NCBI GenBank assembly: GCA_009781955.1
Contig: WQUT01000047.1
Span: forward strand, 1-22,811
Direction of reading: 5' to 3'
Source: Pseudomonadota bacterium
GTDB taxonomy: Bacteria; Pseudomonadota; Alphaproteobacteria; Rs-D84
Length of the DNA: 22,811 bases
Shown here: one piece after another, positions 616 to 17,051 of the stretch
Layout: the number at the start of each line of letters is the position of its first letter
Numbering within the stretch: the first letter of the stretch is position 1
Made by a program: the position numbers and the translations under genes
Notes under the pieces: model-generated
Told to the model about the DNA's origin: nothing
The model's input: only the letters and a program-made list of their open reading frames with translations
Databases searched by the model: none

Positions 616-1365
616 ATGAATCTCACCGCGGAACTCTTTTACGAATTGGAACGGCGGCTACGGGCCATGGGAATGGATTCCGATGCTGAAAGTTTTGATA
701 CTATAAAGGCGCGATTGAGCAACAAAGAACCTTTGTCGCCGGATGATTTCGCGCGTCAGGCGATTTACGTAATCCTCGCCGGCGGGTTTTCGCAAAAGGC
801 CGCAAAAGCGATTCATAGAAAAATAATGAACGTTCTTGAACGGCCCAATGTAGGGGCAAAGAACCACCCACCAAAATCTGCGATTTTATCGGGGCCCGAT
901 AATTATTCGCCCCTACAAAGCGCGAGCCAAGAACAGGCATTATTCTCTGAACTTATAAACTTATTCAACAACAAAAACAAAATAAATGCGGTGGTAAAAA
1001 TTTGGTTGGGCCGCAAGAAATATCGCGACGATTATTATGCCCCGAAAGACAGCGATTTGGAAACAAAATTGAGCTATCTGTCCAAATTGCCCCATATTGG
1101 AAAAATAACCGCGAATCATCTGGCGCGGAATCTGGGCGAAGATGTTGTGAAATATGATATTTGGATCCAGCGGCTGGGCGTCGCATTCGCCGCCGGCGGC
1201 GAAGAATTGAAATCCAAAATAGACAACGGCAACCTGGATCCGGATGTGCGGGCGGCATGCGATAAAATGTTCGCGCATCTGGCGCGCGTTACCGGCCTGC
1301 CCCGCGGATACATTGACGTGGTGCTGTGGAAGGCATGCCAGAATCATATGATAGGGGGGATATAG
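616..1365 (+). CDS. Helix-hairpin-helix (HhH-GPD-like) DNA-glycosylase superfamily protein carrying an in-frame 67-bp repeat insertion
   Basis: A 249-aa ORF starting 22 nt after the HD gene. HhH-like segment LSKLPHIGKITANHLARNLGEDVVKYDIWIQRLG (hairpin G-x-G, followed by an Asp) and an N-terminal QAIYVILAGGFSQKAAKAI helix typical of the fold. Residues VGAKNHPPKSAILSGPDNYSPLQ are encoded by the repeat at 850..916. Confidence 0.5.
   Translation: MNLTAELFYELERRLRAMGMDSDAESFDTIKARLSNKEPLSPDDFARQAIYVILAGGFSQKAAKAIHRKIMNVLERPNVGAKNHPPKSAILSGPDNYSPLQSASQEQALFSELINLFNNKNKINAVVKIWLGRKKYRDDYYAPKDSDLETKLSYLSKLPHIGKITANHLARNLGEDVVKYDIWIQRLGVAFAAGGEELKSKIDNGNLDPDVRAACDKMFAHLARVTGLPRGYIDVVLWKACQNHMIGGI
850..916. 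repeat. 67-bp palindromic element (GTAGGGGCAAA ... TTCGCCCCTAC), copy 1, in-frame inside the CDS
   Basis: Near-identical to 2988..3054 (5 differences). The terminal arms equal the 28-bp perfect palindrome at 9820..9847. There is an internal hairpin AAAATC-tgc-GATTTT. Confidence 0.9.
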
Positions 1366-2283: not shown

Positions 2284-2982
2284 ATGAACGTGAAAATTGA
2301 AGAATCTTGGAAGACCGCGCTTTCCAATGAATTTGAAAAGCCTTATTTCATTGCGCTGACTGATTTTGTCCGCAATGGGTATAACAAATGGGCCGGCGGC
2401 GGCGCGGCGATTTATCCGAAACCGGCCGAGATATTCGCGGCGTTTAATATGTGCCCCTATGAAAAGGTAGAGGTCGTGATAATCGGCCAAGATCCGTATC
2501 ATGAGCCGGGCCAGGCGCACGGGCTGTGCTTTTCCGTTCGCGACGGCGTCGCGCTGCCGCCGTCTTTGCAAAATATTTACAAGGAAATTCAAAACGATTT
2601 GGGGCATCCGTCGGCAATATCGCGGACCGCGGACGGCCATCCATCCGGCGATCTGACAAGATGGGCAGAGCAGGGCGTTTTGCTGCTGAATTCCACATTG
2701 ACGGTCCAGGCGCATCTGGCGGCAAGCCACGCCGGCAAGGGGTGGGAGCAGTTTACGGATGCGGTAATCCGCGCATTATCGCGGCGTTCCGGGATCGTTT
2801 ACCTGCTGTGGGGCAGTTACGCGCAAAAGAAAGCGGAAATCATAGACCCGACGCAGAACCTGGTCTTAAAGTCCGTTCATCCGTCGCCGTTGTCGGCATC
2901 GCGCGGATTTTTCGGCAATCACCAGTTTTCCCGCGCGAACGAATACCTGGAATCCCAGGGGAAACAACCGATAGAATGGTAA
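2284..2982 (+). CDS. ung: Uracil-DNA glycosylase (family 1)
   Basis: Family-1 UDG motifs [23 protein letters not shown] and HPSPLSA. Length is 232 aa. The ATG lies 3 nt after the upstream stop. Confidence 0.95.
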
Positions 2983-2987
2983 TTACC

Positions 2988-3054
2988 GTAGGGGCAAAGA
3001 ACCACCCACCGAAATCTGCGATTTCGTCGGGGCCCGGTAATTATTTGCCCCTAC
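2988..3054. repeat. 67-bp palindromic element, copy 2 (intergenic, 5 nt after the ung stop)
   Basis: gtaggggcaaagaaccacccaccgaaatctgcgatttcgtcggggcccggtaattatttgcccctac. The internal hairpin is GAAATC-tgc-GATTTC, a compensatory change relative to copy 1. Confidence 0.9.
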
Positions 3055-3099
3055 ATAATCCTTGATTTCCGCGTTCGGCATGTTATAATCAGCGGCGCC

Positions 3100-3173
3100 G
3101 CCCCAATAGTATAATGGTAGAACACGTCCTTGGTAAGGACGAGGCGCAAGTCCGATTCTTGCTTGGGGCACCA
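3100..3173 (+). tRNA. tRNA-Thr (anticodon GGU) with encoded CCA; atypical T-loop and D-stem
   Basis: Manual cloverleaf: acceptor GCCCCAA/TTGGGGC, discriminator A, CCA. Anticodon arm CGTCC-TTGGTAA-GGACG. T-arm GCAAG-TCCGATT-CTTGC. D-loop AATGGTA with GG. Oddities: C where U55 is expected, an A:A mismatch in the D-stem, and a 4-nt variable loop. Confidence 0.75.
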
Positions 3174-3334
3174 TCAATTTTCCCCGAACGAAGTGAGGAA
3201 TGGAAAATTGAGCGTCCTGCGAAGCCCTTGGCGAAGCGGGACTATTAAAGTCCCACTGACTTTGACACTGGGGCACCACCCTTTGCCCTGCGGGCTGGCA
3301 GGCCACGTCAATTTACCGCCACATCGGCGTTCGT

Positions 3335-6570: not shown

Positions 6571-6596
6571 AACACGGGGCTTGGCCCCGCGTTTTG
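6571..6596 (+). terminator. Rho-independent terminator after aspS
   Basis: CGGGGC-ttg-GCCCCG (6575..6589) followed by a TTTT-containing tail. Confidence 0.7.
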
Positions 6597-6683
6597 ATTT
6601 AAGATTTATGATTTACGGATTTAAGATTTGTTTTAATATGAAAAGATTTAAATCTTAAATCAGCAAATCTTAAATCCTAAATT
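6596..6683. repeat. GATTTAA-word periodic inverted-repeat element, copy A
   Basis: Left arm gatttaa-gatttat-gatttac-ggatttaa-gatttg faces the right arm aaatc-ttaaatc-agc-aaatc-ttaaatc-ctaaat. It shares the exact 21-mer gatttacggatttaagatttg with 16981..17001. Confidence 0.85.
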
Positions 6684-6746
6684 ATGAAAACCTTCTTATC
6701 GCATGATTTCCGGCCGCTGGGTTATAATACAGGCGGGGGAGAAGTC

Positions 6747-9819: not shown

Positions 9820-9847
9820 GTAGGGGCAAATAATTATTTGCCCCTAC
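9820..9847. repeat. 28-bp perfect palindrome GTAGGGGCAAATAA|TTATTTGCCCCTAC (core-less form of the 67-bp element)
   Basis: An exact palindrome equal to the two terminal arms of the elements at 850 and 2988. It lies 12 nt upstream of the uvrB ATG. Confidence 0.9.
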
Positions 9848-9859
9848 AAGTTGGTTAAA

Positions 9860-11974
9860 ATGAATAAGAAAATTTTTGATCTTAAAAGCGACTATAAACC
9901 CACCGGCGACCAGCCGCGGGCTATACGCGAACTTGTGGGCGGCCTCCGCGCGGGCGAACGGTCCCAGGTTCTGCTGGGCGTCACCGGTTCGGGCAAGACG
10001 TTCACAATGGCGAACGTAATCGCCGAAATGGGCCGGCCCGCCCTAATTATGGCCCCGAACAAGATTCTGGCGGCGCAGCTTTATACCGAGATGAAGGGAT
10101 TCTTTCCGAACAACCATGTGGAATACTTTGTTTCTTACTATGATTATTACCAGCCCGAGGCCTATGTTCCCACAACCGACACCTATATAGACAAAGATGC
10201 GTCAATCAACGACCAGCTGGACCGCATGCGGCATTCCGCCACGCGCGCCATGCTGGAAGAACGCGACGTGGTCGTCGTCTCGTCCGTATCCAGCATTTAC
10301 GGATTGGGCTCGCCGGAAACATACTCGGAAATGAAGGCGACATTCGCGCCGGGCGATCGGGTCGGCATGCGCGATGTAATGCGCGGGCTGGTTGATTTGC
10401 AATACAAACGCAACGATATAGGATTCAATCGCGGCGAATTCCGCGTCCGCGGCGACAGTCTGGATATTTTCCCCAGCCACAGCCAAGACCGCGGCTGGAA
10501 AATGTCGTTCTTTGGCGACGAGGTTGAAGAGATTTGGGAATTTGATATTTTAACCGGGCAAAAAATACGGCGGCTTGAACGCGCGGTGGTGTATCCGAAT
10601 ACACATTACGCCACGCCGATGCCCAGCATTTTGCAGGCCTTGAATGAAATCCGCAGCGATCTGGGGCCGCGTCTGGAATATTTTCACGATAATATGAAGT
10701 ATATAGAAGAGCAGCGTCTGCGCGAGCGGACAAATTTTGACATAGAGATGATGGAGGCGACGGGCACATGCCGCGGGATAGAGAATTATTCGCGTTATCT
10801 GTCCGGGCGCCGTGCGGGCGATCCGCCGCCGACACTGTTTGAATATCTGCCCAAAGACGCTATTTTATTTGTGGACGAGTCGCACGTGTCGGTGCCGCAG
10901 ATTGGCGGAATGGCGCGCGGCGACCGCGTGCGCAAGGAAACGCTGGCCCAATACGGATTCCGTTTGCCCAGCGCGATAGACAACCGCCCGCTGACATTTG
11001 ACGAATGGGACAGATTCCGCCCGCAAACAATATTCGTGTCCGCTACGCCGGCGGATTGGGAATTGGAACAATCGCGCGGCATAGTCGCGGAACAGGTGAT
11101 ACGCCCGACCGGCCTCTTGGATCCGGTTTGCGAAGTGCGCCCGACAAAGAATCAGGTGGATGATTTGCTGGGAGAAATGATCCCCCTCCTGCGGAGGGGT
11201 GCCGCGCCTGTATTGCGCGGCGGGGAGGGTTTTGGATCACGCGAACCCTCCCAGTCAATTTTGCCCGCAAACAAGCGCGGCAAAATTGCCACCCCTCCAA
11301 AGGAGGGGAATCCAGGTCGCGTCCTTATCACCACTCTCACCAAAAAAATGGCAGAGCAATTGACGGACTATCTGACCGAAAACGGCGTCCGCGCGCGGTA
11401 TCTGCACAGCGATATTGAAACATTGGAGCGCATAGAATTGCTGCGAGAGCTGCGCATGGGAAAATTTGACGTCCTGGTCGGAATCAATCTGTTGCGCGAA
11501 GGGCTGGACATACCGGAATGCGAATTGGTCGCGATTATGGATGCGGACAAAGAGGGATTTCTGCGCAGCGCGCGTTCGCTGATCCAGACAATCGGCCGCG
11601 CCGCGCGGAATATAAACGGCCGCGTGATATTGTATGCGGATAAAATTACGGATTCCATGCGCGTGGCGTTGGATGAAACCGCGCGGCGCCGCGAAAAGCA
11701 AATGAAGTATAACGCCGAGCATAAAATCACGCCGCGCGGAATCGTGAAAACCATATTTGAAGAGGTGAAAGACCGCGGGGAAAGAACCGATAAAAAGCGT
11801 CAATTCGTTTATTCCAAGACCGGCGTTATGGATGCGGAATCTTTGAAAAAAGAAATAGCGAAACTGACGAAAGAAATGCGCCGCGCGGCCGAAGACCTGG
11901 AATTTGAACGCGCGGCAGGGCTCCGCGATACGGTGCATAAATTGGAAGACGATTTGTTATTGCTGGGGGGCTAA
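9860..11974 (+). CDS. uvrB: Excinuclease ABC subunit B, with an in-frame hairpin-array insertion
   Basis: [10 protein letters not shown], Walker [29 protein letters not shown], the helicase motifs, and the C-terminal [14 protein letters not shown] domain. I prefer ATG 9860 (MNKKIFDL) to the listed TTG 9851. Confidence 0.95.
11182..11308. repeat. About 127-bp array of five consecutive hairpins inserted in-frame in uvrB
   Basis: H1 CCCCTCC-tgc-GGAGGGG (11183..11199). H2 GCCGCGC-ctgtatt-GCGCGGC (11201..11221). H3 GGGAGGGTT-n12-AACCCTCCC (11223..11252). H4 AATTTTGCC..GGCAAAATT (11257..11287). H5 CCCCTCC-aaa-GGAGGGG (11292..11308). It is translated as ...[46 protein letters not shown]... Confidence 0.85.
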
Positions 11975-12814: not shown

Positions 12815-13405
12815 ATGGATGTTCGGATGCAAGAAATTAAATTAAAAAATGTTGGCGAAACGCGGGCCTGGGCGGCGGAATTCGCAAAGACCCTGTGTGC
12901 GCCGTGCGTTGTTGCCCTGCACGGCGATCTGGGAATGGGCAAGTCAGAAATCGCGCGCAGCATTATTCAAACTCTCTGCGGCGCGGACACGGTGGTTCCC
13001 AGCCCGACGTTCACGCTGGTGCAGAGTTATGAATGCTCCGTCGCATGCCCCCCCTCTTGGGGGGGGCTGTCGCGCCGTAGCGATAGCGAAGGCAGACTGG
13101 GGGGGGCTACTTCCGAAAAAAATAGTAATAAAAAGTCATTAAATGAAGAAGTCCCCCCTCGTCGCCCTTTGGGCGACACTCCCCCCCACCGGGGCCCCCG
13201 CGCGACAGAGCGGATTTCCCATTTTGACCTATACCGCATTACTGATGCGTCGGAATTGGAAGAAATAGGCCTGGGCCATGCATGTGCGAATGATATTACC
13301 CTGATAGAATGGCCGGAAATCGCCGCCGGTTTTCTGCCCGCCAATACTATTCATATTTATTTGGAAGAATATGAAGGTGGCAGAAAATTGGAAATGACAG
13401 AATGA
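12815..13405 (+). CDS. tsaE: tRNA t6A37 threonylcarbamoyl-transfer protein TsaE (YjeE-type P-loop ATPase) with an in-frame insertion
   Basis: LHGDLGMGKSEIAR (Walker A), SPTFTLVQSYE, HFDLYRI and LIEWPE are the TsaE hallmarks. The 196 aa exceed the usual length of about 150-160 aa because of the insert at 13047..13208. The start could also be ATG 12827. Confidence 0.85.
   Translation: MDVRMQEIKLKNVGETRAWAAEFAKTLCAPCVVALHGDLGMGKSEIARSIIQTLCGADTVVPSPTFTLVQSYECSVACPPSWGGLSRRSDSEGRLGGATSEKNSNKKSLNEEVPPRRPLGDTPPHRGPRATERISHFDLYRITDASELEEIGLGHACANDITLIEWPEIAAGFLPANTIHIYLEEYEGGRKLEMTE
13047..13208. repeat. About 160-bp G-run/C-run nested-hairpin element inserted in-frame in tsaE
   Basis: GCCCCCCC-tctt-GGGGGGGC (13047..13067). 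Outer inverted repeat CTGTCGCGC (13067..13075) with GCGCGACAG (13200..13208). GGGGGG-ct-ACTTC with GAAGT-CCCCCC around an A-rich centre. GTCGCCC-ttt-GGGCGAC (13161..13177). Confidence 0.85.
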
Positions 13406-13508
13406 CAAAGTGACAGAGTGACAGAGTTATTGCAACCGCGCACAAAGTGCGCGGTTATTATTTGTTGCGGCTTTGCCGCAACACCACAACTCTGTCACTT
13501 TGTCACTC
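13392..13508. repeat. TGACA-octamer periodic inverted repeat enclosing two terminator hairpins (convergent tsaE / ftsA-rpe ends)
   Basis: Four TGACA at 8-nt period (13395, 13403, 13411, 13419) face two TGTCA (13493, 13501). Inner hairpins are AACCGCGCAC-aaa-GTGCGCGGTT (13434..13456) and GTTGCGGC-ttt-GCCGCAAC (13464..13482). Confidence 0.85.
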
Positions 13509-15287
13509 TTTGCGCAGCAAAGATTGCACCGCCAATGGAAAATCCGCGGCATTGGCCAGATACGACGCGGACGCCAGGAAATCCGCGCCCGCGGCCCAGC
13601 ATAGTTTCGCCGTCGCCGGATTGATTCCGCCATCCACGCTGATTTTGAAACACAACCCATATTTCCGCCGGGTATTGGCAAGCGTTGAAATCCGATACAC
13701 TGCATCCGGCAGGAATTCTTGCCCGTTCGGGCCGGGGCGTATAGACATCACCAGAATTTCATCAACCTCTTTTAATATCGGTTTCAATATTTCCAGCGGC
13801 GAATCCGGGTGCAGCGCGATTCCCGCCCGCTTTCCCAATTCGCGTATCTTTTTCAGCGCCGCCCGCGCGCCGTTCGTGCCGGTTGATATTATTATGGTAT
13901 CCGCCCCGGCCGCCGCCGCCTGTTCCGCCCAGATTATCGGGTTTTCGGTCATCAGGTGAACATTCAAATGAGCGTTTGTGTGTTCGCGGATAAAGCGAAG
14001 CTCGTCCATGCTGCCGGTTATTCTGTTCACATAAAATCCATCCATCACGTCGCAATGAATCATGCTGATGCCGCCGGATTCAAACAGCTTGTAAGTCGTG
14101 GGGCTGCGCATATTAAAACCCTGGGTGCTGGGCATAATCGGAATAAAGGCCGGCGTTTTCGCGATCTTTCTGCGGCGGAATATTTTGGGAAGCCAGGATA
14201 ACAATCTGCCCCATTTTTCCCGGCGGGCGACATAGTGTTTCGCGCGCGCCGCATCGTTCTGCCAGATTTGTTTGGCGCAGGCGGCGACGGCGGCGTCCGC
14301 CCCCAGATTATGAACGGGCAGCCCGAACATCTCGCCCGCCAGATTTTCTATTCCGGGTATATTCGTGCCGCCGCCGGAAATATAGACTGCTGACGGCCCG
14401 TATTTTTCTATGTGCCGCGCCAATTCTGCCCGCGCCAGTTCCATGATTTCGCGCAATGCGGGCAGGCCCGCGTCGCACACGTCGGCGCGCGACAATTCGT
14501 AACCGGCGTCCGCGACAGCGAATCTGTCCATTTCGCTGGATGCGGCGACAAGGCTGGCCACCTTTATCTTTTCCGCGTCGGGGAAAGGAATGCGCAGCCT
14601 GTCGGCTATATCGTTTGTGATTTTAATCTGGCCCATCGGGATCTTTGACAGCGACACGATGCCGCGCGCGGTCCAGCATGACACGGTTGTCCATGCCGCG
14701 CCCAGGTCAATGAAGACGGCGGGCGCGGCGGATTTGCGCGCGGCCATCCCGATAAGCACCGCCGGGTCAAAAAAGCCCGCCGATTCTATGTGCGCGGTGC
14801 GCAATACGGATTGCGCCGAATGCATGTCTTCGCGCGAATAAGAGATGACATGGAACACCGACGACAGGGCGCAATCGGTCTGGCCGACCGGCAGCGATAT
14901 GTTCTTGAATCCGGGGATGTCATAGCGCAGCGGGATTATATGCAGCGGCGCCTCGTTCGCGTTCTGCAAATCAAACAATATTTCGGAAATCTGTTTGCCG
15001 ATGTCGTTCGCGGAAATCTTGCGCGCGCCGCCCCATTCCGTCGTTTTATTGATTATCGCCGACCGCGCGAATCCGAAATCGCCGGTGACATAGGCCGATT
15101 CAAAATGCTTTCCAAGTTGGGATTCCAGCTCGTCAACCGCGGTTTTAAGGGCGAACGCGGTGTCGGGCGATTCGCAGATTTTCAGAACGCTCTGCGCGAC
15201 GCGGCCGCCGCGCACGCGAACGCCCAGCGCGCGGACCGCAGAGGATCCCAGATCAAGGCAAAGAAAAGACGAGTCAATCAGGTTCAT
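13503..15287 (-). CDS. ftsA: Cell-division protein FtsA fused in-frame to ribulose-phosphate 3-epimerase
   Basis: N-terminal roughly 370 aa: actin-fold FtsA (LCLDLGSSAVRALGV, VFIDLGAAWTTV, ITNDIADRL, YISGGGTNIPGI), ending in an amphipathic helix KWGRLLSWLPKIFRRRK. The frame then continues without a stop into an Rpe domain (IHCDVMDG, NVHLM, LVMSIRPG, ISVDGGI). I prefer ATG 15287 (MNLIDSS) to 15311, which lies in the repeat. Confidence 0.8.
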   Translation of the reverse strand: MNLIDSSFLCLDLGSSAVRALGVRVRGGRVAQSVLKICESPDTAFALKTAVDELESQLGKHFESAYVTGDFGFARSAIINKTTEWGGARKISANDIGKQISEILFDLQNANEAPLHIIPLRYDIPGFKNISLPVGQTDCALSSVFHVISYSREDMHSAQSVLRTAHIESAGFFDPAVLIGMAARKSAAPAVFIDLGAAWTTVSCWTARGIVSLSKIPMGQIKITNDIADRLRIPFPDAEKIKVASLVAASSEMDRFAVADAGYELSRADVCDAGLPALREIMELARAELARHIEKYGPSAVYISGGGTNIPGIENLAGEMFGLPVHNLGADAAVAACAKQIWQNDAARAKHYVARREKWGRLLSWLPKIFRRRKIAKTPAFIPIMPSTQGFNMRSPTTYKLFESGGISMIHCDVMDGFYVNRITGSMDELRFIREHTNAHLNVHLMTENPIIWAEQAAAAGADTIIISTGTNGARAALKKIRELGKRAGIALHPDSPLEILKPILKEVDEILVMSIRPGPNGQEFLPDAVYRISTLANTRRKYGLCFKISVDGGINPATAKLCWAAGADFLASASYLANAADFPLAVQSLLRKE

Positions 15288-16530: not shown

Positions 16531-16636
16531 CCGGTGAATGGTAACTGGCGGCTGGTGATCCGTAATCGGAAACCATCTGGCGATATAAGTTATAATACCA
16601 ATCACCAGTCACCAGTTACCAACCACCAATCACTGC
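16531..16636. repeat. CACCAG-heptamer periodic inverted repeat in a divergent promoter region
   Basis: Left arm ccggtga-atggtaa-ctggcgg-ctggtga (16531..16558). Right arm tcaccag-tcaccag-ttaccaa-ccaccaa-tcactgc (16602..16636). The 43-nt spacer contains TATAAT (16591..16596). Confidence 0.8.
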
Positions 16637-16657: not shown

Positions 16658-16966
16658 ATGAACAATGTAAACAAATTCATACAGCTGGCGAATTTCTATA
16701 ACCAGATGCTGGCCGTCATGGCGGCCATATGCGTTCAAAAGGGCGGCATCCCGATAGAGCAATACGTCGGGCGATTCTTTGCCGCGGACGTTCTGGAATT
16801 CCTGGCCGAATACGGCGCAAAGCTGCAAACCGACGATGAGTCTGTCCAGCGCGTCGCCGCGCTGTTCAGGGCGGAATATGAAAAGGCGAAAGATCTGACC
16901 ACGCCCAGCCAAAAGCCGATATTTGAGATGACGCTGGAAGAATTTGAAAAAGTGATGAACATTTAG
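16658..16966 (+). CDS. Hypothetical protein (102 aa)
   Basis: GGGGGGAG lies 7 nt upstream of the ATG. No motif recognised. Confidence 0.55.
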   Translation: MNNVNKFIQLANFYNQMLAVMAAICVQKGGIPIEQYVGRFFAADVLEFLAEYGAKLQTDDESVQRVAALFRAEYEKAKDLTTPSQKPIFEMTLEEFEKVMNI

Positions 16967-17051
16967 GATTTAAGATTTAAGATTTACGGATTTAAGATTT
17001 GCGGATTTAAGATTTAAAAAATCAAAAATCATCGGTCTTAAATCTTAAATT
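16966..17051. repeat. GATTTAA-word periodic inverted-repeat element, copy B
   Basis: ggatttaa-gatttaa-gatttac-ggatttaa-gatttgc-ggatttaa-gattt faces aaaaatc-aaaaatc-atcggtc-ttaaatc-ttaaat. It starts at the stop codon of the upstream gene. Confidence 0.85.

What the first reader, a model, noticed from the sequence alone, without database searches (positions are those of the whole stretch)
850..916. A 67-bp palindromic repeat sits in-frame inside a protein-coding gene; the three-copy family shows compensatory stem changes
**Copies.** The same element (GTAGGGGCAAA - 39-bp core - TAATTATT[T/C]GCCCCTAC) occurs inside the HhH-like CDS (850..916) and in intergenic DNA after ung (2988..3054). A core-less 28-bp perfect palindrome lies upstream of uvrB (9820..9847).

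**Frame.** The CDS copy does not break the frame; it adds about 22 aa (VGAKNHPPKSAILSGPDNYSPLQ). Reading the element by hand, only one frame per strand is free of stops: one of the other two forward frames hits TAG at the start and the other hits TAA near the end. The genic copy sits in exactly the permissive frame.

**Structure.** The two long copies differ at 5 positions. Two of these convert the A-T pair of the internal hairpin AAAATC-tgc-GATTTT into G-C (GAAATC-tgc-GATTTC). A third adds one more C-G pair. This is covariation that preserves a stem.

**Analogy.** The behaviour is the one described for Rickettsia palindromic elements (selfish repeats tolerated inside ORFs), but the sequence is unrelated to anything I recognise.
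Basis: partly seen in the sequence, partly recalled or inferred. Interest (0 to 1): 0.75.

Follow-up and report, generated by a model that had tools for sequence, protein, structure and literature searches.

The report
Selfish palindromic repeat inside genes
The 67-base palindrome inside the gene is a copy of a known kind of selfish bacterial repeat (a "GTAG" REP element, spread by a RAYT transposase) that survives inside genes because one reading frame stays open, and here it carries a second small hairpin nested in its loop, which has not been described before.

Summary
Two 67-nt copies (850-916 in a CDS, 2988-3054 intergenic) and a 28-nt palindrome (9820-9847) exist as described. Only one frame per strand is open, and one A-T to G-C compensatory change is real.

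However, the sequence does belong to something known.
- The 28-nt palindrome is a GTAG-tagged REP. It is near-identical in many copies of the same MAG.
- It has no target-site duplication, and about half the copies lie in ORFs, read as [10 protein letters not shown].
- It flanks RAYT transposase genes in 15 of 110 loci fetched with it, including a RAYT on another contig of the source MAG.
- In-frame GTAG REPs were already described in 2013.

The new part is that the 67-nt form is composite. A 36-nt asymmetric hairpin with a covarying stem sits in the REP loop. The same module sits in the loops of at least five unrelated hairpin families that also exist "empty".

Orthologues of the host protein, which has a glycosylase-like fold, lack the 23 aa or carry other REPs at three loop hot spots. 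uvrB and tsaE in this window also carry palindromic inserts.

Verdict: a new variant of a known kind, of moderate interest.

The parts
616..1365 (+). Host CDS of 249 aa. It is an uncharacterised conserved protein with a helix-hairpin-helix motif and a predicted HhH-GPD DNA-glycosylase-like fold. It lies two genes upstream of ung (an unannotated 303-aa ORF at 1369-2280 sits between them).
   Evidence: - The ORF is listed and has no Pfam or NCBIfam hit.
- It has 1704 homologues.
- The AlphaFold model has pLDDT 88 and is all-alpha.
- The top Foldseek PDB matches are AlkA, Ogg, EndoIII and MagIII. They are weak: E = 7e-3, TM about 0.5.
850..916 (+). Composite element, copy 1. It lies in-frame in the CDS and encodes aa 79-101 (with the next two bases, 69 nt = 23 codons).
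   Evidence: - Sequence and frame.
- Absent from orthologues.
- Lies in the non-helical segment 75-102, where pLDDT falls to about 50 (aa 81-100).
- Carries three private pair-breaking transitions relative to L165/L207.
864..899 (+). Nested 36-nt core hairpin module inside copy 1.
   Evidence: The covariance model R1 scores it at 56 bits, E = 1.4e-13. Alignment A2.
2988..3054 (+). Composite element, copy 2. It is intergenic, 5 nt after the ung stop codon and 8 nt before the -35 box of the tRNA-Thr promoter.
   Evidence: - Sequence.
- Promoter-like site TTGATT-16-TATAAT at 3062-3089.
- tRNA-Thr at 3100-3173.
- The orthologous spacer in L122 is empty.
3002..3037 (+). Nested 36-nt core hairpin module inside copy 2.
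   Evidence: R1 scores it at 64 bits, E = 4.7e-16.
9820..9847 (.). Basic 28-nt GTAG REP palindrome, GTAGGGGCAAATAATTATTTGCCCCTAC. It sits between the divergent asmA-like gene and uvrB, 3 nt before the uvrB ORF.
   Evidence: - Sequence and fold.
- The identical 28-mer occurs 62 times in the metagenome loci.
- It occurs 17 times in 193 kb of the same MAG.
- It flanks RAYT genes.

Best explanation
The element is a non-autonomous, selfish palindromic repeat of the GTAG-tagged REP/REPIN kind.

**Basic unit.** The basic unit is the 28-nt hairpin GTAG-GGGCAAAT-AATT-ATTTGCCC-CTAC. With its conserved pyrimidine and purine flanks it measures 30 nt, which is 10 codons.

**Spread (inferred).** It is most likely copied as single-stranded hairpin DNA by a RAYT, an HUH/Y1 tyrosine transposase, encoded elsewhere in the same genome. 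This mechanism leaves no target-site duplication.

**Survival in genes.** Copies land anywhere. Inside genes, only those in the single stop-free frame, of a length divisible by three, and in surface loops survive. They are then translated as short extra peptides: [10 protein letters not shown] for the 28-mer and VGAKNHPPKSAILSGPDNYSPLQ for copy 1.

**The 67-nt form.** This is a composite. A second repeat, a 36-nt asymmetric hairpin (CCACCC - 7-12 bp covarying stem - 3-nt loop - GGGGCCCGG), has been inserted into the loop of a 28-nt REP, with 3 extra bases. The composite has since been copied as a unit; at least four copies occur in this MAG.

**Shown versus inferred.**
- Shown: the anatomy, copy numbers, frames, absence from orthologues, lack of duplication, RAYT linkage, and the empty and filled hairpins.
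- Inferred: that RAYT is the mobilising enzyme, that the inserts are translated and neutral, and how the core enters loops.
For: **REP anatomy and abundance**
- The element has a GTAG head and a GC-rich stem.
- 124 of 174 elements in 110 metagenome loci are 28-mers, and 62 are identical to the window's.
- In 193 kb of the same MAG there are 35 elements, 20 of them 28-mers, of which 17 are identical. Same-MAG status rests on FWC61 locus tags for L207 and L202 and on the contiguous MCL233 protein accessions for the other loci checked; L131, L165, L177, L204, L224, L228 and L229 were not checked directly (L131 and L229 lie on contigs that were).

**No target-site duplication**
- Two-nt flank matches occur in 7 of 116 copies, as expected by chance.
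- Position -1 is a pyrimidine in 85%, mirrored by a purine at +1.

**RAYT link**
- 15 of 110 loci fetched only by the palindrome hold a RAYT gene that is flanked by the palindrome. JGI names homologues 'REP element-mobilizing transposase RayT'.
- The source MAG has its own RAYT at L211 1700-2311. It matches NF047646 at E = 7.7e-15 and keeps the HIH and YIAGNP motifs. The exact 28-mer lies 192 nt downstream.

**In-frame tolerance**
- 77 of 179 elements lie in ORFs of at least 120 aa, nearly all in frame 0.
- Hosts include LigA, GyrB, a PD-(D/E)XK nuclease, MnmG, RsmE and a DNA methylase.
- Orthologues of the host protein carry other GTAG elements at three sites, confirmed at DNA level. All three sites are inter-helix loops.

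**Composite nature**
- The core occurs about 30 times without the REP.
- It always sits in a hairpin loop.
- Its outer hairpins also exist empty, with 3-5 nt loops.
- In L190 it sits at another position of the same 28-mer, with a 3-nt ATT duplication.
- Its stem covaries.

**Literature**
- GTAG REPs, HH dimers, intragenic copies and the RAYT link: PMC3733652.
- REPINs: PMC3116915.
Against: - No mobility was observed directly. There is no insertion polymorphism, excision product or transposition intermediate.
- The RAYT of the source MAG has the 28-mer on one side only. It carries a different REP subtype (GGGCGTAT stem) internally.
- All RAYT matches score below the NCBIfam cutoff of 80 bits, probably because of their internal inserts.
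- The nested core has no GTAG tag, and nothing links it to RAYT.
- Translation of the insert is unproven.
- Exact insertion boundaries could not be fixed, because the host linkers are too variable.
- The genome is a binned MAG.
Confidence: 0.78

Rival explanations
1. The hairpin is a functional RNA element, such as a terminator, stabiliser, attenuator or small RNA. Selection acts at transcript level, and its presence in the CDS is regulatory.
For: - The core stem covaries strongly.
- The core is strand-asymmetric. The full model matches one strand only.
- 10 of 18 non-Watson-Crick cells are A.C on the + strand, which is G.U on the - strand. All three private changes of copy 1 are of this type.
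- PMC3733652 argues that many REPs act as RNA.
Against: - Copies occur in both orientations relative to their host genes: sense in window copy 1, L190 and L153, antisense in L165 and L216.
- There is no Rfam match even at E = 10.
- Copy 2 has no U-tract. The terminator-like reading of the 28-mer is on a strand with no upstream gene.
- Hairpins recognised as ssDNA by HUH transposases would covary in the same way.
Confidence: 0.08
2. The inserts have been co-opted. The extra peptides, or the DNA hairpins, modulate DNA-repair and replication proteins, as PMC3733652 speculated for REPs in uvr and rec genes. They are kept by positive selection.
For: - Host genes are rich in DNA-metabolism functions: an HhH glycosylase-like protein, uvrB, LigA (two inserts), GyrB, a PD-(D/E)XK nuclease (two) and a DNA methylase.
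- The same three loops of the host protein are hit repeatedly in different lineages.
Against: - Inserts differ in sequence and length between orthologues at the same site, and many orthologues have none.
- Hosts also include unrelated proteins: MnmG, RsmE, GT2, TsaE and T9SS proteins.
- Copy 1 is accumulating stem-breaking changes.
- The insert has low predicted order.
- No enrichment test against the gene background was done.
Confidence: 0.07
3. It is a classical MITE, a deletion derivative of a DDE-transposase insertion sequence. GTAGGGGCAAA would be the terminal inverted repeat, and the 28-mer would be an internally deleted copy.
For: - The termini are perfect 11-nt inverted repeats around a non-coding centre.
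- The size is in the lower MITE range.
Against: - There is no target-site duplication.
- The 28-mer far outnumbers the long form under an equally stringent search.
- The centre occurs independently in other hairpins.
- The termini flank RAYT genes rather than DDE transposases.
Confidence: 0.03
4. The 23 aa are an ancestral, lineage-specific linker of the protein, and the intergenic copies are fragments of the gene. Alternatively, the whole thing is an assembly artefact at a repeat.
For: The linker region is variable in the family.
Against: - The same DNA occurs in unrelated genes and spacers of the same MAG.
- The identical protein is recorded on two contigs and is held by NCBI, JGI and ENA.
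- The segment is a perfect-ended palindrome.
Confidence: 0.02

Closest known systems
GTAG-tagged REPs (Di Nocera, De Gregorio & Rocco 2013, PMC3733652)
   Same: - A GTAG tetranucleotide lies next to a short GC-rich hairpin.
- There are subfamilies with alternative complementary stems, singletons, and head-to-head dimers with GTAG on the outside.
- Copies are linked to RAYT genes.
- Copies occur inside genes and encode 7-30 aa, for example VGAG... in P. putida. Many of those hosts are replication or repair genes, including uvrB.
- Some of the published families have long self-complementary loops.
   Different: - I could not check whether the GGGCAAAT/GGGCGAAT stem family is one of the 24 published ones, because the consensus sequences are in a figure that is not held.
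- The intragenic fraction here, about half, appears much higher.
- The long loop is a discrete module that also lives in non-REP hairpins.
- The identical 28-mer is shared by a Proteobacteria MAG and a Bacteroidales MAG.
REPIN-RAYT systems (Bertels & Rainey 2011, PMC3116915)
   Same: - Near-identical populations of short palindromes occur within one genome.
- Inverted doublets form long hairpins. The 67-nt and 73-nt dimers in L122, L123 and L230 are examples.
- One RAYT gene was found in the sequence sampled (REPIN-RAYT systems typically have a single copy).
   Different: - REPINs are described as extragenic.
- The window's 67-nt element is not a REP doublet. It is one REP with a foreign hairpin in its loop.
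Rickettsia palindromic elements, RPE (Ogata et al. 2000, 2002; as summarised in PMC3733652, otherwise from my own knowledge)
   Same: - Several families of palindromic repeats are inserted in-frame in many functional genes of one genome.
- The inserts lie at loop positions.
- Three genes in this 22.8-kb window are affected.
   Different: - The host and the sequence family differ. According to PMC3733652, RPE-4 and RPE-6 are CGTC-tagged, not GTAG-tagged.
- No transposase has been assigned to RPEs, whereas a RAYT link is shown here.
- Sequence similarity to RPE consensus sequences was not tested.
REPs and BIMEs as insertion targets of IS elements (Tobes & Pareja 2006, cited in PMC3733652; IS1397/ISKpn1 from my own knowledge)
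   Same: A second mobile sequence lands specifically in the central part of a REP palindrome. One junction (L190) shows a 3-nt duplication.
   Different: - The inserted sequence here is only 36-39 nt and non-coding.
- It also enters terminator-like and other hairpin loops.
- Most junctions show no duplication.

Membership tests
GTAG-tagged REP / REPIN-RAYT | A GTAG tetranucleotide adjoins a short GC-rich hairpin with a stem of 5-13 bp. | tested here: met
   The unit is GTAG-GGGCAAAT-AATT-ATTTGCCC-CTAC. It folds at -18.6 kcal/mol, z = -5.5.
GTAG-tagged REP / REPIN-RAYT | Many near-identical copies are dispersed within one genome. | tested here: met
   There are 35 elements in 193 kb of MAG FWC61, and 17 of the 28-mers are identical. 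The sample is biased, because the loci were fetched by the repeat.
GTAG-tagged REP / REPIN-RAYT | A cognate RAYT (HUH/Y1 transposase) gene is flanked by the repeat. | tested here: met
   15 of 110 loci hold a RAYT flanked by the 28-mer. The source MAG's RAYT at L211 1700-2311 has the 28-mer 192 nt downstream. The scores of 55-64 bits are below the 80-bit NCBIfam cutoff.
GTAG-tagged REP / REPIN-RAYT | Insertion leaves no target-site duplication. | tested here: met
   Two-nt flank identity occurs in 7 of 116 copies, which equals chance.
GTAG-tagged REP / REPIN-RAYT | The replicative unit is an inverted REP doublet (REPIN, or HH dimer). | tested here: inconclusive
   True doublets exist in the family, such as the 67-nt and 73-nt elements in L122, L123 and L230. 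The window's 67-nt element is one REP plus a nested foreign hairpin, and singletons dominate.
GTAG-tagged REP / REPIN-RAYT | The location is extragenic. | tested here: not met
   41-54% of copies lie inside ORFs. PMC3733652 already documents intragenic exceptions, so this does not exclude membership.
GTAG-tagged REP / REPIN-RAYT | RAYT binds and cleaves the hairpin, and mobility depends on RAYT. | not testable with these tools
   This needs biochemistry or genetics.
Rickettsia palindromic elements (RPE) | A palindromic repeat is inserted in-frame in intact protein-coding genes, at positions compatible with the fold. | tested here: met
   uvrB and tsaE in the same window are also affected.
Rickettsia palindromic elements (RPE) | The sequence is similar to the RPE-1 to RPE-8 consensus sequences. 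| not tested
PMC3733652 classes RPE-4 and RPE-6 as CGTC-tagged, unlike this GTAG element.
DDE-type MITE | Terminal inverted repeats are accompanied by a target-site duplication, and a parent IS exists. | tested here: not met
   There is no duplication. The termini flank RAYT genes, not DDE transposases.
Intrinsic terminator | A GC-rich hairpin is followed by a U-tract downstream of a gene. | tested here: not met
   Copy 2 has no T-run after the full hairpin. The 28-mer has a T-run only on the - strand, where no gene ends.
Any Rfam RNA family | The sequence matches a curated covariance model. | tested here: not met
   Only the tRNA matches at the gathering threshold. Nothing matches at E up to 10 in 2940-3100.

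The most novel reading that the evidence does not exclude
The 36-nt core (CCACCC - covarying stem - GGGGCCCGG) is an independent miniature mobile element that specifically colonises the apical loops of other DNA hairpins. It would be a 'parasite of palindromes'. Its hosts include REPs of at least four stem types, terminator-like hairpins and at least four other palindromic repeat families, and it has about 30 copies in this lineage. It could use single-stranded loop DNA as its target and an unidentified enzyme, possibly the RAYT. If so, it is a class of hairpin-loop-targeting micro-element that has not been described.
Probability: 0.35. Interest if true: 0.75.

Novelty: new variant of a known kind. 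Interest (0 to 1): 0.55.

Why it matters
**A second case of protein-coding palindromes.** Protein-coding palindromes were described as a peculiarity of Rickettsia. Here an uncultured Proteobacteria MAG shows the same phenomenon at high density. Three of about twenty genes in one 22.8-kb window are affected, and about half of the REP copies lie in ORFs. Unlike the Rickettsia case, a candidate enzyme (RAYT) is present in the same genome, which makes the mechanism experimentally testable.

**An annotation marker.** The 10-aa [10 protein letters not shown] signature is a practical marker for spotting such inserts, and the spurious ORFs they create, in metagenome annotation.

**A possible new behaviour.** The nested core, if mobile, would be a new behaviour for bacterial micro-repeats, namely targeting hairpin loops.

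**An old puzzle.** The repeated hits in replication and repair genes echo an unexplained published observation.

Tried and rejected
- **Rfam.** The gathering-threshold scan of the whole window and the E <= 10 scan of 2940-3100 found nothing beyond the tRNA.
- **Peptide census.** I searched 1.84 billion representative proteins with the 30-aa segment around the insert and got 0 hits. This is uninformative. The composite is rare, and clustering at 50% identity hides it.
- **Literature.** Searches for GTAGGGGC and for the peptides VGANN and GANNYLPL returned only unrelated papers.
- **Profile search of PDB sequences with the host family.** No meaningful hit. Only fold comparison gave the weak glycosylase resemblance.
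- **First RAYT screen.** A two-motif regular expression found 2-3 RAYTs and missed most. An HMM built from three RAYTs with their REP inserts removed found 15 further loci.
- **RAYT homologue search.** I looked for an alphaproteobacterial RAYT by name. The top hits are mostly Bacteroidota. The source MAG's RAYT was found through the loci instead.
- **GyrB boundary test.** I aligned GyrB from the source and from L122 (82% identity) to fix the insertion boundaries. The linker is too variable.
- **Target-site duplication.** Rejected for the 28-mer. For the core, only one junction (L190, ATT) and one near-match (GAA versus TAA in the window type) look like a 3-nt duplication. The other junctions show none.
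- **CGTC-tag reading of the core.** Rejected, because CGTC is part of a covarying stem and is not conserved.
- **Viral contigs.** The core gave 0 hits and the 28-mer gave 2 contigs. Neither was followed up.
- **Not done.** Loci L086-L120 were not searched with the core model.
Full report
**1.

GTAGGGGCAAA, allowing one mismatch, occurs six times in the window, as three head/tail pairs. Shuffles predict 0.47 occurrences, and 0 of 100 shuffles reach six. The three elements are:
- a 67-nt copy at 850-916;
- a 67-nt copy at 2988-3054;
- a perfect 28-nt palindrome at 9820-9847, which equals the long form minus 39 nt.

The two 67-nt copies differ at five positions, all transitions.

Copy 1 lies in ORF 616-1365 and encodes VGAKNHPPKSAILSGPDNYSPLQ, aa 79-101. 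In both long copies and in the 28-mer, only frame 0 of each strand is free of stops. Frame 1 starts with TAG, and frame 2 meets TAA or TAG.

The differences at positions 24 and 38 turn an A-T pair into G-C, and G39 adds a C-G pair in copy 2.

**2. The insert is an insertion, and the host family has been hit repeatedly**

The protein has 1704 homologues, mostly 215-220 aa, from Alphaproteobacteria-labelled MAGs. In an alignment of 27 of them, the 23 aa are absent from most.

Several orthologues carry their own inserts at three hot spots, after query aa ~77, ~143 and ~193. These begin with VGA and end with (A/S)PL(Q/H/R), which is the translation of GTA GGG GCx ... xCC CCT ACx.

DNA of two such orthologues confirms this.
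- L122 holds a 28-mer and two 67-nt head-to-head REP dimers inside the gene.
- L123 holds a 73-nt and a 67-nt dimer.

An AlphaFold model of the window protein (pLDDT 88) is all-helical. The insert occupies the non-helical segment 75-102, with pLDDT about 50. The other two hot spots are the loops at 142-147 and 192-195. The fold weakly resembles HhH-GPD DNA glycosylases, with Foldseek E = 7e-3 and TM about 0.5. No sequence family matches.

**3. What the termini are**

The hits are GTAG-headed hairpins and inverted doublets of them.

This is the published GTAG-tagged REP superfamily. That work describes 24 families, head-to-head dimers with GTAG on the outside, linkage to RAYT transposases, and in-frame intragenic copies. 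Many of those intragenic copies lie in replication and repair genes, including uvrB (PMC3733652). The doublets are what others call REPINs (PMC3116915).

**4. The 28-mer is the basic unit**

I scanned metagenomes with a pattern that accepts both the short and the long form with equally strict termini.
- Of 174 GTAGGGGC...GCCCCTAC elements in them, 124 are 28-mers.
- 62 of those are identical to the window's 28-mer.
- Only three are the window-type composite or its variant.

Flanks of 116 unique 28-mers show no target-site duplication. Two-nt matches occur in 7 of 116, as expected by chance. There is a pyrimidine at -1 in 85%, mirrored by a purine at +1. The conserved unit is therefore 30 nt, or ten codons, and the long form is 69 nt. 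This explains how palindromes of 28, 67 and 73 nt (all 1 mod 3) sit in frame.

Of 179 elements, 77 lie in ORFs of at least 120 aa, with at least 60 nt of ORF on each side. Nearly all are in frame 0 and read VGANN(Y/H)(L/S)PL(Q/R/H/P). For unique 28-mers the fraction is 41%, against 77% for random positions.

Ten long hosts were scanned, and nine are recognisable genes:
- NAD-dependent DNA ligase, with two inserts;
- a PD-(D/E)XK nuclease, with two inserts;
- MnmG, a DNA methylase, RsmE and a family-2 glycosyltransferase;
- a 739-aa ORF with YbeY and Lnt domains;
- Bacteroidota T9SS proteins.

GyrB in L122 is a further host.

**5. RAYT linkage**

I built an HMM from three RAYTs found in the loci, with their REP inserts removed. 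It detected RAYT genes in 15 of the 110 loci that had been fetched only by the palindrome. In most of them the 28-mer flanks the gene on one or both sides, and another copy lies in-frame just after the HUH motif (MPNHVHGII...[10 protein letters not shown]...HGTSxTIGS).

They match NCBIfam 'REP-associated tyrosine transposase' at E = 1e-15 to 1e-17, but below the curated cutoff. JGI names their homologues RayT.

One of these loci, L211, belongs to the same MAG as the window.
- Its neighbouring protein, MCL2331286, falls inside the accession run MCL2330983-MCL2331848. The two proteins of that run whose locus tags were shown carry the prefix FWC61, like the host protein P0001; the window's ung (MCL2331403) lies in the same run.
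- That RAYT (L211 1700-2311) keeps the HIH and YIAGNP motifs.
- The exact 28-mer lies 192 nt downstream.
- It carries an internal dimer of another REP subtype.

In 193 kb attributed to this MAG there are 35 GTAG elements. Twenty are 28-mers, 17 of them identical. Four are window-type composites and one is a variant. Nineteen lie inside ORFs. The sample is enriched for repeats by construction, and seven of its loci (L131, L165, L177, L204, L224, L228, L229) were not checked for MAG membership directly, though L131 and L229 lie on contigs that were.

**6. The 67-nt form is a composite**

The central 36 nt, CCACCCAMCGAAATCTGCGATTTCGTCGGGGCCCGG, also occur without the GTAG palindrome.

I built a covariance model from 14 copies.
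- Eight pairs change on both sides, and 91.9% of cells are paired, against 80.4% when shuffled. None of 500 shuffles reaches this, and structures slid by one to three columns collapse.
- The model finds about 30 distinct full-length copies in the loci of this lineage (GC 0.48-0.53).
- It finds nothing convincing in 85 loci from other phyla.

Matches are strongly one-stranded, so the module is asymmetric.

In every case the module sits in the apical loop of a larger hairpin. These hosts include:
- REP units with stems GGGCAAA, GGGCGAAT, GGGCGGC or GGGCGC;
- terminator-like AAAAAATCCCGC...GCGGGATTTTTT hairpins;
- at least four other palindromic families.

The same outer hairpins also exist empty, with 3-5 nt loops. 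Examples are CGTCGCC-ttc-GGCGAC (one copy at window 13149), CCGGCCCTTC-tga-GAAGGGC and AAAAAATCCCGC-aaa-GCGGGATTTTTT.

In L190 the module lies at a different position of the same 28-mer, with a 3-nt ATT duplication. The window type has GAA where a TAA duplication would be expected. The long form is therefore a REP that received a second hairpin in its loop and was then copied as a unit. It is not a full-length element from which the 28-mer derives.

Copies in L165 (inside rsmE, in reverse orientation, read as VGANNYRAPTKSQILVGGSLPLQ) and L207 (intergenic) look like the master sequence. Copy 2 differs from them only by the two partners of one pair. Copy 1 differs by three transitions that break pairs on the + strand (G.U on the - strand).

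**7. Mechanism**

The shown facts fit the REP/RAYT model. These are a hairpin with a GTAG guide-like head, no duplication, near-identical populations, and a RAYT in the same genome. In that model an HUH tyrosine transposase handles single-stranded hairpin DNA. This step is inferred from what is known of the family and was not tested here.

Survival inside genes follows from the single open frame, the 3n length and placement in loops.

How the core enters loops is unknown. Single-stranded loop DNA as a target is my conjecture.

An RNA-level role is less likely. Copies occur in both orientations within genes, no Rfam family matches, and the terminator criteria fail.

**8. Context in the window**

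Copy 2 sits between the ung stop codon and the -35 box of a near-consensus promoter for tRNA-Thr. The orthologous spacer in L122 is empty. The 28-mer lies 3 nt before the uvrB ORF, between divergent genes.

Two more genes in the window carry in-frame inserts of other palindromic families.
- uvrB has about 38 extra aa relative to E. coli UvrB, encoded by a region that folds at -88 kcal/mol.
- tsaE has its Pfam match split in two, with an insert of about 50 aa that contains an 'empty' member of one outer-hairpin family.

**9. Verdict**

The finding is real and correctly read as a selfish palindromic repeat tolerated in frame. It belongs to a known kind, the GTAG REP/REPIN-RAYT elements, whose intragenic copies were described in 2013.

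What goes beyond the known:
- the nested loop-dwelling core module;
- the density of coding palindromes outside Rickettsia;
- recurrent hits at the same three loops of one protein family;
- REPs embedded in RAYT genes;
- an identical 28-mer in MAGs labelled Proteobacteria and Bacteroidales.

Noticed in passing
window 11179-11312 (inside uvrB, 9851-11974): uvrB carries an in-frame insert of about 38 aa relative to E. coli UvrB, between DDLLGEM and RVLITTLTK. The DNA consists of two inverted hairpin units, GATCCCCCTCCTGCGGAGGGGTG and CACCCCTCCAAAGGAGGGGAATC, around a structured 88-nt spacer. The region 11170-11320 folds at -88 kcal/mol. This palindromic family is different from the one in the finding.
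   Followed up: partly
window ~13040-13200 (inside tsaE, 12815-13405): TsaE is 196 aa, and its Pfam match is split into two stretches. The insert of about 50 aa contains G7/C7 runs and the hairpin CGTCGCC-ctttg-GGCGAC. That hairpin is an 'empty' member of a family that carries the core elsewhere (L202 4450). This is the third gene in the window with a coding palindrome.
   Followed up: partly
L036 6654-7178(-), L167 9017-9655(+), L162 11128-11703(-), L211 1700-2311(-), and P0124-P0243: RAYT genes carry their own REP in-frame at one conserved spot, right after the HUH motif. Examples are HIHFIIEI-VGAKYFSP and [22 protein letters not shown]. By a motif count, 69 of 120 RAYT homologues show such an xGA(K/N)N(F/Y)(S/L)P segment. 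This could be autoregulation or a local-hop hot spot. I know of no description of it.
   Followed up: partly
L162 (Ga0123355_10000504) versus window, L211 and other FWC61 loci: The identical 28-nt REP occurs with a RAYT in a contig labelled Bacteroidales (MCL2417093) and in the Proteobacteria MAG of the window. It also lies inside Bacteroidota-type T9SS proteins (L133, L157) and in two IMG/VR viral contigs (L236, L237). This suggests transfer of the REP-RAYT pair across phyla.
   Followed up: partly
L001-L120 (one genome per species): GTAGGGGCGAA-headed hairpins and doublets occur in very many phyla. One distinct 72-nt class, GTAGGGGCGAAGCATTTGC-34 nt-GCAAATGCTTCGCCCCTAC, has a variable centre. 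It is found in Brocadia, cyanobacteria, Chloroflexota and others.
   Followed up: no
window 6596-6690 and 16961-17050: Intergenic arrays of a GATTTAAGATTTxxG motif with a 15-nt period. The two sites are inverted relative to each other (43 nt, 86% complementary). Similar 'gatttaagatttaagattt' sequence was seen in L216.
   Followed up: no
window 13399-13509 and 16533-16627: Two further long imperfect inverted repeats lie in intergenic DNA. One is GTGACAGAGTGACAGAG... around a GC hairpin, and the other is GGTGAATGGTAACTGGCGGCTGGTGA....
   Followed up: no
P0018, P0040, P0012, P0022, P0024 (alignment A1); L202 4025, L216 4235: Orthologues of the host protein carry other insert types at the same hot spots, for example ...NPESG...PDNxxAxxFRDD and SQKQSIE.... 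The first type appears to match another palindromic family (TCATCCCCGGAATTTCC...), which also hosts the core in some copies.
   Followed up: no
window 3262-3283: About 90 nt downstream of tRNA-Thr there is a second 'ctggggcaccaccc' that resembles the tRNA 3' end (cttggggcacca). It may be the remnant of an integration site.
   Followed up: no
alignment A1, hot spot 1 (query aa ~77): At least five orthologues have different GTAG elements at about the same position: a 28-mer, a ~48-nt dimer, the 67-nt composite, a 73-nt dimer and a longer one. Closer relatives have none. Either the site is targeted repeatedly, or a resident REP is replaced by others.
   Followed up: no
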